DNA from: Escherichia coli
Lineage (GTDB): Bacteria; Pseudomonadota; Gammaproteobacteria; Enterobacterales; Enterobacteriaceae
NCBI RefSeq assembly: GCF_003334815.1
Contig: NZ_QOWO01000019.1
Length of the DNA stretch: 64,000 nt
Direction: 5' to 3' (one strand)
Of this stretch, positions 35,901-38,900 are shown piece by piece. The position numbers are program-made. Numbering within the stretch: position 1 is the first letter of the stretch; each line of letters starts with the position of its first letter.

Positions 35901-38900
35901 ACCCAGAAATTTAAGGAAAAGTGGGCCACCGATCAGTGATGCCATCAGCCCAACCAGCAAACCGTAGACGATCACCGAACCGATATCTGCGCCCAGCTTA
36001 TTGGCAACATATAAAGCAGCCGGATGTGGAGGAACCACGCAGTGCACTGCCATCAATGCGGTACATAGCGGAATGGCAAGCTTTAATAATGAGGTATTGG
36101 TTTTTTTGGCAATTGAAAAAGCCAGAGGAATCAATAGCACGACGCCCACTTCAACAAACAGCGTGATGCCACAAATCAGGCCAACCAGCACCATAATGAC
36201 ATCAACTGAAAGCCAGCGGCAGCGTTGAAGTGTCAGACCAATTCTTTCTGCGGCCCCGGATACTTCCATCATTTTTCCCAGTATCGTGCCAAGGCCGATA
36301 ACCGCTGCGAGGAACCCCAGCGTTCCGCCAATTCCACTTTCAATAGCATTTACCATATCCAGTGGCCCCATGCCCATCATCGTTCCCACGAAGAAGCTGG
36401 CCAGCAACAGCGCCAGAAACGGGTGGAATTTGAACTTCACGATGGTCAGTACAATTAACACGATGCTGATAAGCAGCGTGCTCACAACCCAGATTTGAGA
36501 GTGCATATCTCACCTTCCCCTGTGATTAACCTGATGATATTGGACAAAAAAACAACGCAGGCTGACAAACGATAAAATTTGCCTTTCACATGAGGTAAAT
36601 TGCATCAATGGAGTGATTTACATCTAAAAATGAAGGTGAATTGAGATATGGTTCACTTTAGCTCATCTCATAGCTGAAATTTTGCCGCTATTTTTTTACA
36701 CTTAAGCGAAAAATGAGGTGATTATGGAACCCCTTCGTGAAATAAGAAATCGGCTGCTTAACGGCTGGCAATTATCAAAAATGCATACTTTTGAAGTGGC
36801 TGCCAGGCATCAGTCCTTCGCCCTGGCGGCAGAGGAATTGTCGCTGAGCCCCAGTGCGGTAAGTCACCGTATCAATCAGCTGGAAGAAGAATTGGGCATT
36901 CAGTTGTTTGTTCGTTCCCATCGCAAAGTGGAATTAACGCACGAGGGGAAACGTGTTTATTGGGCGCTAAAATCGTCGCTGGATACCCTGAACCAGGAAA
37001 TTCTTGATATCAAAAATCAGGAGTTATCGGGAACGTTAACTCTGTATTCCCGGCCCTCTATCGCCCAATGCTGGTTGGTGCCCGCATTAGGTGACTTTAC
37101 ACGCCGGTATCCGTCTATTTCGCTCACCGTGCTCACTGGTAATGACAACGTCAATCTGCAACGTGCCGGAATCGATTTGGCGATCTACTTTGATGATGCG
37201 CCGTCAGCGCAACTCACTCATCACTTTCTGATGGATGAAGAAATCCTGCCAGTATGTAGCCCGGAATACGCTCAAAGACATGCTTTAACCAACACGGTAA
37301 TTAACCTGTGTCACTGTACGTTGCTCCATGACAGACAGGCATGGAGCAACGACTCCGGTACGGATGAATGGCATAGTTGGGCGCAACATTATGCGGTTAA
37401 TTTGCCGACATCTTCTGGAATTGGCTTTGATCGTTCTGATTTAGCTGTTATTGCCGCGATGAATCATATTGGGGTGGCGATGGGAAGAAAACGCCTGGTA
37501 CAAAAAAGGCTTGCCAGTGGTGAGCTCGTCGCGCCGTTTGGCGATATGACGGTGAAATGCCATCAGCATTATTACATCACCACATTACCGGGCAGGCAGT
37601 GGCCAAAAATTGAAGCGTTTATTATCTGGCTAAGAGAACAGGTAAAAACCACTTCATAATGAATAAAACCACGAGTTCCTGGTGTGCCTTATTCGGCCTG
37701 CTAGTTCGAATTTAATTTACGGTTTTTATGTGGTTTTAGGGATAAACACAAGGATGGTGTCCCCTGCAGGAATCGAACCTGCAATTAGCCCTTAGGAGGG
37801 GCTCGTTATATCCATTTAACTAAGAGGACAATGCGGCATGAGTATACCCGCTAATGGAGTGCGGGGTAAGTACGCTGCCGCTCGATTGCTTAAACCCTCG
37901 CCATTTATGCCGGGTTTTTATAATTTTTCTTAATGTTTTCCGCACGTTCTGCTTTTTGGCGTGCTTCTGCTTTACGCTTATTGCTCATGTCGTTACGAAT
38001 CTGTGCATGACTCATTAACGCGAAGATAAAGGTGCCGCCGCAGATGTTCCCCGCTAAAGTAGGTAGTGCGAAGGGCCAGATGAAATCGCTCCAGTGCAGC
38101 GTACCGTTAAACACCAGATAGAGGATTTCAACAGAACCGACCACGATATGGGTGGTGTCACCCAGGGCAATAAGCCAGGTCATCAATATAATCACCACAA
38201 TCTTTGCCGCACCCGCTGCAGGAAACATCCAAACCATAGTGGCGATCAGCCAGCCGGAAATGATCGCGTTGGCAAACATCTCGCTGGGGGTGTTCTTCAT
38301 CACATCCATGCCGATTTTGACAAATGCATCGCGAGTTTCTTCATTGAAGATAGGCATATATTCAAATGCCCACGCCGCAATACCTGTCCCGAGAATATTA
38401 CCCAGCAGCACGACGCCCCATAACCGTATAAGTAAGCCGACGTTGCTCATTGTCGGTTTTTGCATGACGGGTAGTACCGCAGTCACGGTATTTTCGGTAA
38501 ATAATTGCTGGCGGGCCATAATGACGATAATAAAACCAAAGGTATAACCGAGATTCTCCAGCAAGAAGCTGCCCGGCACACCTTCCAGTTCGACTTGAAA
38601 TATCCCTTTTGCCAGTAACGAAGCGCCCATCGACAGACCCGCCGCAATGGCTGACCACAGTAGCGCCATTGCGTCGCGTTCCAGCTCTTTTTCACCATCC
38701 TGGCGGATATGCTCATGAATTGCCATCGCCCGGGAGGGGAGTCGGTCTTCATCTATTTCTATTTTTTTGCCGCGCTCTTTTTCTTCGCTCTCAACTTCAA
38801 TTTCGTCGCTGTGTTGATCAATTTTGTCGTTGTCCATGGTCTCTTCTCTTGAATTAGCACGTATAGCTAAAGCGTAGCGGCTTTTTTGCTCGCAACTGAC

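What the first reader, a model, noticed from the sequence alone, without database searches (positions are those of the whole stretch)
37660..37904. Unoccupied argW tRNA integration site: dsdC directly abuts tRNA-Arg(CCU)
Only about 95 bp separate the dsdC stop (37659) from the 3' end of argW (37755), and about 75 bp separate argW from yfdC. From memory of the K-12 map, about 10 kb of the cryptic prophage CPS-53/KpLE1 (intS, gtrABS, yfdK–yfdT, torI) sits between argW and dsdC, and other E. coli lineages carry different islands at this tRNA. Here there is no integrase, no phage gene and no duplicated tRNA 3' end, so this looks like a naive attB. That marks the source strain as non-MG1655 and gives a clean reference junction for defining island boundaries in other genomes.
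Basis: partly seen in the sequence, partly recalled or inferred. Interest (0 to 1): 0.45.

Follow-up and report, generated by a model that had tools for sequence, protein, structure and literature searches.

The report
Empty argW phage attachment site
This is the well-known spot at the end of the E. coli argW tRNA gene where certain phages integrate; it is empty in this strain, as it is in about one in six complete E. coli genomes, so the reading is correct but ordinary.

Summary
tRNA-Arg(CCU) lies at 37755..37829 (-). It is 95 bp from the dsdC stop at 37659 and 75 bp from yfdC at 37905..38837 (-).

The whole 64-kb window is collinear with K-12 MG1655 and differs by 8 SNPs and one 1-bp indel. 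The 10,215 bp between the two 16-nt cores of prophage CPS-53/KplE1 are missing exactly. The single remaining core, CTGCAGGGGACACCAT, is at 37754..37769. It is the published KplE1/HK620/Sf6/Kapi1 att core. Combining the window site with HK620 attP in silico reproduces K-12 attL and attR.

The window has no integrase or phage gene and no second copy of the tRNA 3' end.

The same dsdC-argW junction occurs in 912 of 5,426 complete E. coli genomes. An intS gene is present in 1,864.

The source is a wild-type sister of K-12, not a cured lab derivative. Its yfcU is intact and it carries wild alleles where K-12 has private ones.

"Naive" cannot be told apart from scarless excision by sequence. Parsimony favours never occupied by CPS-53. 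The site and its core are already described, so interest is low.

The parts
36724..37659 (+). dsdC, the LysR-type regulator of D-serine catabolism. It forms the right-hand chromosomal flank of the attachment site.
   Evidence: The ORF 36718..37659 is listed. It matches NCBIfam TIGR02036 DsdC at E 2.8e-181. The K-12 annotated start maps to 36724.
37660..37753 (.). Spacer between the dsdC stop and the att core. In K-12 this DNA sits to the right of attR, after pawZ.
   Evidence: It is 60/60 identical to the K-12 attR right flank and there are 0 mismatches over 5,417 bp on this side. The consensus scan found no terminator-like or promoter-like site.
37754..37769 (-). Single attB core, CTGCAGGGGACACCAT. 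It covers the last 15 nt of argW (3' side of the T stem, acceptor stem, discriminator, CCA) plus 1 nt downstream.
   Evidence: It is the only match in the window at up to 3 mismatches. K-12 has two copies, bounding CPS-53. It is identical to the published KplE1 core (PMC2951348) and to the annotated attP core of HK620.
37755..37829 (-). argW, tRNA-Arg(CCU), intact.
   Evidence: ARAGORN and Rfam RF00005 at 63.4 bits. It is 100% identical to K-12 argW.
37830..37904 (.). 75-bp spacer between the yfdC stop and the 5' end of argW.
   Evidence: Read. It is identical to K-12. The consensus scan found no promoter-like site.
37905..38837 (-). yfdC, a formate/nitrite-transporter-family membrane protein. 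It forms the left-hand chromosomal flank.
   Evidence: ORF. It has a weak FNT family match and is annotated yfdC in K-12 and other genomes.

Best explanation
The interval is the unoccupied bacterial attachment site (attB) at the 3' end of argW, in a wild-type E. coli that is a very close sister of K-12. The site is used by the IntS family of tyrosine integrases, carried by P22-like phages such as Sf6, HK620, CUS-3 and Kapi1, and by the ancestor of CPS-53/KplE1. Such a phage carries an attP with the same 16-nt core between its int and xis/torI genes. IntS exchanges strands within the core. The phage copy of the core then regenerates the 3' end of argW at attL, next to intS. The chromosomal copy is left as a 15-nt tRNA fragment (pawZ in K-12) at attR, next to torI and dsdC. 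The sequence relations are shown here. Catalysis and directionality by IntS and TorI come from the literature. In this strain only one core exists and dsdC follows 95 bp after the tRNA, so nothing is integrated. The most likely history (inferred, about 70%) is that this lineage never carried CPS-53 and the prophage was gained on the K-12 branch. The alternative (about 25-30%) is scarless excision.
For: The anatomy is confirmed. In-silico excision of CPS-53 from MG1655 reproduces the window exactly at the junction. The three-way alignment shows window = attL-left + core + attR-right. HK620 attP is ...caagtagatgtCTGCAGGGGACACCATttatcagttcgc.... attL equals attB-left (60/60) plus attP-right (57/60), and attR equals attP-left (60/60) plus attB-right (60/60). 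Controls gave 12/60 and 15/60. The core is published as the KplE1 duplicated core (PMC2951348). The Kapi1 study describes the same empty dsdC-tRNA-Arg-yfdC site in strain KP7. Deleting its 17-bp attB removed integration at the site: 19/20 colonies integrated with the site and 0/24 without it (PMC8787464). Phage records with IntS at 95% identity or more number 38 and include CUS-3, Sf6, HK620, HK633, IME10 and Kapi1. The same junction is in 912 of 5,426 complete genomes (911 with a 2.2-kb query). For the history: the K-12-type CPS-53 (at least 80% covered) is in only 362 genomes, and the five sampled are all K-12 laboratory lineage. Wild isolates with near-identical flanks have the empty site, for example BS74R-D with 1 mismatch over window 25001..50000. 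K-12's three differences from them, at window 8441, 39635 and 50873 (the yfcU stop), are K-12-private. The local tree is therefore star-like, with CPS-53 on one tip.
Against: Nothing contradicts 'unoccupied attB'. 'Never occupied' is weaker. KplE1 is reported to be excision-competent in vivo (PMC2951348), and excision leaves exactly this sequence. CPS-53 is a decayed 10-kb remnant, yet only 3 SNPs in 64 kb separate K-12 from the empty haplotypes. Acquisition and decay would therefore have had to be fast. I saw only 5 of the 362 CPS-53-bearing genomes, so a wild carrier cannot be excluded. No integration was tested in this strain.
Confidence: 0.93

Rival explanations
1. The site is cured. An IntS-type prophage (CPS-53 or an intact P22-like phage) was once integrated here and was removed by IntS/TorI-mediated precise excision, which restores attB without a scar.
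For: The window equals MG1655 with CPS-53 excised exactly between the cores. KplE1 is reported to excise in vivo (PMC2951348). The flanks differ from K-12 by only 8 SNPs and 1 indel in 64 kb, and both share the IS186 insertion next to nupC. That leaves little time for K-12 to gain a phage and have it decay.
Against: The K-12-type CPS-53 was seen only in K-12-lineage genomes (five sampled). Several independent wild isolates with near-identical flanks are all empty. The local relationships are star-like, so ancestral presence would need several losses against one gain. The sequence cannot decide.
Confidence: 0.27
2. The window comes from a laboratory K-12 derivative in which CPS-53 was deleted or cured, such as a prophage-free or reduced-genome strain.
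For: Identity to MG1655 is 99.986% over 64 kb, and the IS186C junction is present at window 1..79.
Against: yfcU is intact in the window (Tyr579), whereas K-12 has a stop codon there, as does the K-12 derivative ET12567. The window carries the wild allele at all three K-12-private positions, shared with LR-33, BS74R-D or 300709. Five further SNPs and an indel are private to the window, too many for a K-12 derivative over 64 kb. The wild isolate LR-33 also has an IS186-family element next to nupC.
Confidence: 0.03
3. The junction is an assembly artefact: a prophage is really present but was dropped when contigs were joined across the repeated core.
For: None specific. Prophages at argW have been left unassembled in drafts; the MP1 contigs in PMC8787464 are an example.
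Against: The repeat is only 16 nt, far too short to collapse an assembly. The identical junction is present in 912 complete genomes.
Confidence: 0.02

Closest known systems
attB of KplE1/CPS-53, HK620, Sf6 and Kapi1 at argW (IntS/TorI recombination module)
   Same: The 16-nt core CTGCAGGGGACACCAT is identical. It sits at the same position, the last 15 nt of argW plus 1 nt. The flanking genes yfdC and dsdC are the same. Combining it with HK620 attP in silico gives K-12 attL and attR (PMC2951348; PMC8787464).
   Different: Nothing differs in sequence. The 17th base of the Kapi1 att site (5' A) is not matched: the window has G at 37753. This fits the 16-nt version reported for KplE1, HK620 and Sf6.
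K-12 MG1655 argW-CPS-53-dsdC region
   Same: The flanks are essentially identical: 1 mismatch in 8,786 bp around the site and 99.986% identity over 64 kb.
   Different: The window lacks the 10,215 bp from core to core (intS ... torI) and therefore the pawZ fragment. Its yfcU is intact where K-12 has a pseudogene.
The variable argW-dsdCXA island of E. coli (Moritz & Welch 2006, cited in PMC8787464 and PMC4366372; paper not held)
   Same: It is the same locus. This window represents the simplest state, with argW directly followed by dsdCXA.
   Different: Other states seen here: O157:H7 has intS, a P22-like remnant and cscRAKB replacing dsdC and the 5' part of dsdX. Nissle 1917 has an integrase-less island with an OmpH-like gene, UpaE, a LuxR-type gene and ipuA/ipuB. 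EC195 has csc directly abutting argW without an integrase. O157:H7 F6321 has an element inserted inside the argW body.

Membership tests
Unoccupied attB for IntS-type (KplE1/HK620/Sf6) tyrosine integrases at argW | The 16-nt core CTGCAGGGGACACCAT overlaps the 3' end of tRNA-Arg(CCU). | tested here: met
   There is an exact match at 37754..37769 (-) and the tRNA is at 37755..37829 (-). The core sequence is as published (PMC2951348).
Unoccupied attB for IntS-type (KplE1/HK620/Sf6) tyrosine integrases at argW | The core is identical to the attP core of a phage of the family, and attB x attP reproduces a known attL/attR pair. | tested here: met
   The annotated attP core of HK620 is the same 16-mer. 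Flank identities are 60/60, 57/60, 60/60 and 60/60 against controls of 12/60 and 15/60.
Unoccupied attB for IntS-type (KplE1/HK620/Sf6) tyrosine integrases at argW | There is a single core copy, with no integrase, RDF or phage genes beside it. | tested here: met
   There is one match at up to 3 mismatches in 64 kb and no argW fragment longer than 13 nt elsewhere. The window is collinear with MG1655 segments that have no integrase or phage annotation.
Unoccupied attB for IntS-type (KplE1/HK620/Sf6) tyrosine integrases at argW | The site actually supports IntS-catalysed integration. | not testable with these tools
   This was shown experimentally for the equivalent site of strain KP7 with phage Kapi1 (PMC8787464), not for this strain.
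Prophage-occupied argW (CPS-53/KplE1-type) | intS lies next to argW, torI lies next to dsdC, and a duplicated core (pawZ) is present. | tested here: not met
   All three are present in MG1655 and absent from the window.
tRNA-Arg(CCU) gene argW | A cloverleaf tRNA with anticodon CCU, located between yfdC and dsdC. | tested here: met
   ARAGORN reports anticodon cct, Rfam gives 63.4 bits against a gathering score of 29, and it is 100% identical to K-12 argW.

The most novel reading that the evidence does not exclude
The empty site is the product of a recent natural IntS/TorI-mediated excision of CPS-53 from a lineage that shares its immediate ancestor with K-12. That would mean the 'cryptic' K-12 prophage is still lost by site-specific excision in wild populations, rather than being a K-12-specific acquisition.
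Probability: 0.25. Interest if true: 0.2.

Novelty: already known. Interest (0 to 1): 0.08.

Why it matters
It matters little beyond annotation. The window gives the exact coordinates of the argW attB core in this strain. It shows the source is a wild-type sister of K-12 without CPS-53. It could serve as an empty-site reference for delimiting argW islands, but such references are already in the literature and in hundreds of complete genomes. The only mildly useful by-product is a population figure for 5,426 complete genomes: 17% have the dsdC-argW junction and 34% carry intS. The remainder were not counted; the states sampled among them were the csc locus, the B2-type island and an element inside argW.

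Tried and rejected
1. I looked for a degenerate second att copy or old scar: the 20-mer and the 16-mer at up to 3 mismatches and blastn-short with the whole tRNA. The only extra hit was a 13-nt match to tRNA positions 43-55 at 24471..24483, which is not the 3' end and is at chance level.

2. I scanned 37500..38100 for promoter-like and terminator-like sites. None was found, so nothing can be said about argW or dsdC signals from this scan.

3. An Rfam scan of the whole window found only the tRNA.

4. I tested whether the window is a K-12 laboratory derivative cured of CPS-53. This was rejected on the intact yfcU and the wild alleles.

5. I tried to identify the source genome. No complete RefSeq genome among the top hits matches the window's private SNPs, so the strain is not in that collection or was not listed. 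ET12567 and LR-33 scored slightly above MG1655, probably because two-piece alignments overlap across IS target duplications. ET12567 carries CPS-53. LR-33 has 44 SNPs against window 24791..47228.

6. I tried twice to read Moritz & Welch 2006 (PMC1698345). It is not held, so it is cited only through other papers.

7. Two loci fetched in parallel calls were missing from the script machine; one was re-fetched and all loci were readable from then on. No result was affected.

Full report
**Observation**

The window holds a single tRNA gene, tRNA-Arg with anticodon CCT, at 37755..37829 on the minus strand (ARAGORN). Rfam RF00005 confirms it at 63.4 bits against a gathering score of 29.

The ORF ending at 37659 on the plus strand is DsdC (TIGR02036, E 2.8e-181). 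The K-12 annotated start maps to 36724. The ORF at 37905..38837 on the minus strand is yfdC.

- 95 bp (37660..37754) between the dsdC stop and the 3' end of argW
- 75 bp (37830..37904) between the 5' end of argW and the yfdC stop

**Comparison with K-12**

In MG1655, argW (2466309..2466383) is followed by the annotated cryptic prophage CPS-53 (2466369..2476583). Its genes run intS, yfdG/H/I, tfaS, yfdK-yfdT, ypdJ and torI. A 15-nt tRNA fragment, pawZ (2476584..2476598), follows, and dsdC starts 95 bp later.

The 16-mer CTGCAGGGGACACCAT occurs twice in that K-12 stretch, at the two ends of CPS-53. It occurs once in the window, at 37754..37769 on the minus strand.

Deleting the 10,215 bp between the two K-12 copies in silico gives a sequence that matches the window. 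There are 0 mismatches over 5,417 bp on the dsdC side and 1 mismatch over 3,369 bp on the argW side. A three-way alignment shows the same thing: window = attL left arm + core + attR right arm.

The whole window is collinear with MG1655 2440138..2466384 plus 2476584..2514351. It differs by 8 SNPs and one 1-bp indel, which is 99.986% identity. The annotation of those MG1655 intervals holds no integrase or phage gene. The only mobile DNA is the first 79 bp of IS186 at window 1..79, inserted next to nupC at the same place as K-12 IS186C.

The window has no second copy of the tRNA 3' 20-mer or of the core, even with three mismatches allowed. No other fragment of argW longer than 13 nt is present.

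**What it is and how it works**

The 16-nt core is the duplicated core published for KplE1/CPS-53 (PMC2951348).

The HK620 genome record annotates an "attP core" between torI/hkaC and int. Its sequence is the same 16-mer.

Taking 60 bp on each side of the core gives these identities:

| K-12 arm | Compared with | Identity |
|---|---|---|
| attL left | window left arm | 60/60 |
| attL right | HK620 attP right arm | 57/60 |
| attR left | HK620 attP left arm | 60/60 |
| attR right | window right arm | 60/60 |
| attL right (control) | window right arm | 12/60 |
| attR left (control) | window left arm | 15/60 |

The window therefore carries the attB that, recombined with an IntS-type attP, yields the K-12 junctions.

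The core covers the 3' side of the T stem, the 3' acceptor strand, the discriminator and CCA of argW, plus one base beyond. On integration the phage copy regenerates the tRNA 3' end at attL. The chromosomal copy becomes the pawZ-like fragment at attR.

Catalysis by IntS and directionality by TorI are taken from the literature (PMC2951348, PMC3509656), not tested here.

The Kapi1 study describes the same empty arrangement (dsdC, tRNA-Arg, yfdC) in strain KP7. Deleting its att site abolished integration there: 19/20 colonies integrated with the site and 0/24 without it (PMC8787464).

At least 38 phage records encode an integrase 95% or more identical to IntS. They include CUS-3, Sf6, HK620, HK633, IME10, Kapi1 and VT2phi_272. 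These are the likely users of the site.

**How common the empty state is**

A 281-bp query centred on the core is covered at 80% or more in one place in 912 of 5,426 complete E. coli genomes. A 2.2-kb query gives 911.

In the other genomes the alignments break at query positions 133-138 and 150-158, which is at the core.

A near-complete intS with its attL arm is present in 1,864 genomes.

The remaining genomes are not all prophage-occupied. States sampled:
- O157:H7 2-6-2 has intS, a P22-like remnant and the csc sucrose genes replacing dsdC and the 5' part of dsdX.
- Nissle 1917 has an integrase-less island with an OmpH-like gene, UpaE, a LuxR-type gene and ipuA/ipuB.
- EC195 has csc directly next to argW with no integrase.
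- O157:H7 F6321 has an element inserted inside the argW body.

This agrees with published descriptions of the locus as hypervariable (PMC8787464 and PMC4366372, both citing Moritz & Welch 2006, which I could not read).

**Naive or cured, and what the strain is**

The window is not a cured K-12 laboratory derivative.
- yfcU (49137..51782) is intact, with Tyr at codon 579. K-12 has a stop codon there, and the K-12 derivative ET12567 is also annotated with an internal stop.
- At the three positions where K-12 differs from wild relatives (window 8441, 39635, 50873), the window has the wild allele.
- Five SNPs and the indel are private to the window (2327, 17314/5, 21958, 27964, 60184). None of the four genomes compared base by base carries them (each position checked in two or three of them), and no top hit in the complete-genome collection matched the window without mismatches.

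Wild isolates with an empty site have nearly the same haplotype. Examples are BS74R-D, Z1323PEC0012 and the IAL72xx isolates, each with 1 mismatch over window 25001..50000.

The K-12-type CPS-53 (at least 80% covered) occurs in 362 genomes. The five sampled are all K-12 laboratory lineage. Below those, coverage drops to 43% or less, and the matches examined are to related prophages elsewhere in the chromosome.

The local relationships are star-like, with CPS-53 on one tip only. One gain on the K-12 branch is therefore more parsimonious than several losses.

Excision by IntS/TorI is scarless and KplE1 is reported to excise in vivo (PMC2951348). The very small flank divergence also leaves little time for a phage to integrate and decay to 10 kb. 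I put "never occupied by CPS-53" at about 70% and "cured" at about 25-30%. The sequence alone cannot decide.

**Verdict**

Everything about the site is already described:
- the tRNA target
- the 16-nt core
- the phages that use it
- the empty state
- the variability of the locus

The same junction is found in about one in six complete genomes. This is an ordinary, correctly read strain polymorphism. Novelty is "already known" and interest is low.

Noticed in passing
window 1..79: The window starts inside the left end of an IS186 element inserted next to nupC, at exactly the position of IS186C in K-12 MG1655. The wild isolate LR-33 also has an IS186/IS421 transposase next to nupC (L006). The insertion is therefore shared beyond K-12, or the site is a hot spot.
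   Followed up: partly
window 49137..51782 (+): The fimbrial usher gene yfcU is intact here (Tyr579). In K-12 MG1655 it is a pseudogene with a stop at codon 579, caused by a single SNP at window 50873. Wild relatives BS74R-D and 300709 also have it intact.
   Followed up: yes
window 2327, 17314-17315, 21958, 27964, 60184: These differences are private to the window compared with K-12 and the wild relatives examined. They are mntH R228S, a SNP plus a 1-bp insertion between ypdK and alaC, frc P287L, evgS N672K, and a synonymous change in yfcL. No listed complete genome shares them, so the source strain seems not to be in the complete-genome collection. Three of the four coding changes are non-synonymous.
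   Followed up: partly
window 8441 and 39635: Apart from yfcU, the K-12-private alleles are also non-synonymous. They are ypdF codon 241 (Leu in K-12, Pro here and in LR-33) and mlaA codon 169 (Phe in K-12, Leu here and in the wild relatives).
   Followed up: partly
L010 5930..6105 (O157:H7 strain F6321), corresponding to window 37803: In this genome similarity to the window stops inside argW, about 27 nt from its 5' end. Foreign DNA follows, including a large LPD38-domain gene, and ARAGORN calls no tRNA at that junction. This points to a second integration point within argW, distinct from the 3'-end core. It may be the argW-integrated Stx2 phage mentioned in the literature list. I did not look at the other junction.
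   Followed up: partly
L013 18312..20075 (strain EC195); L007 (O157:H7 2-6-2): The csc sucrose-utilisation genes replace dsdC and the 5' part of dsdX. In EC195 they abut argW directly with no integrase. Similarity to the window ends exactly at the tRNA 3' end. A broken dsdC-argW junction therefore does not always mean a prophage is present.
   Followed up: partly
L008 8129..19565 (Nissle 1917): The phylogroup B2-type DNA between argW and dsdC has no integrase. It carries an OmpH-like gene, the phase-variable autotransporter UpaE, a LuxR-type regulator and the invertases ipuA and ipuB.
   Followed up: no
window 24471..24483: There is a 13-nt exact match to argW positions 43-55 (variable region and T arm, not the 3' end). 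It is consistent with chance.
   Followed up: yes
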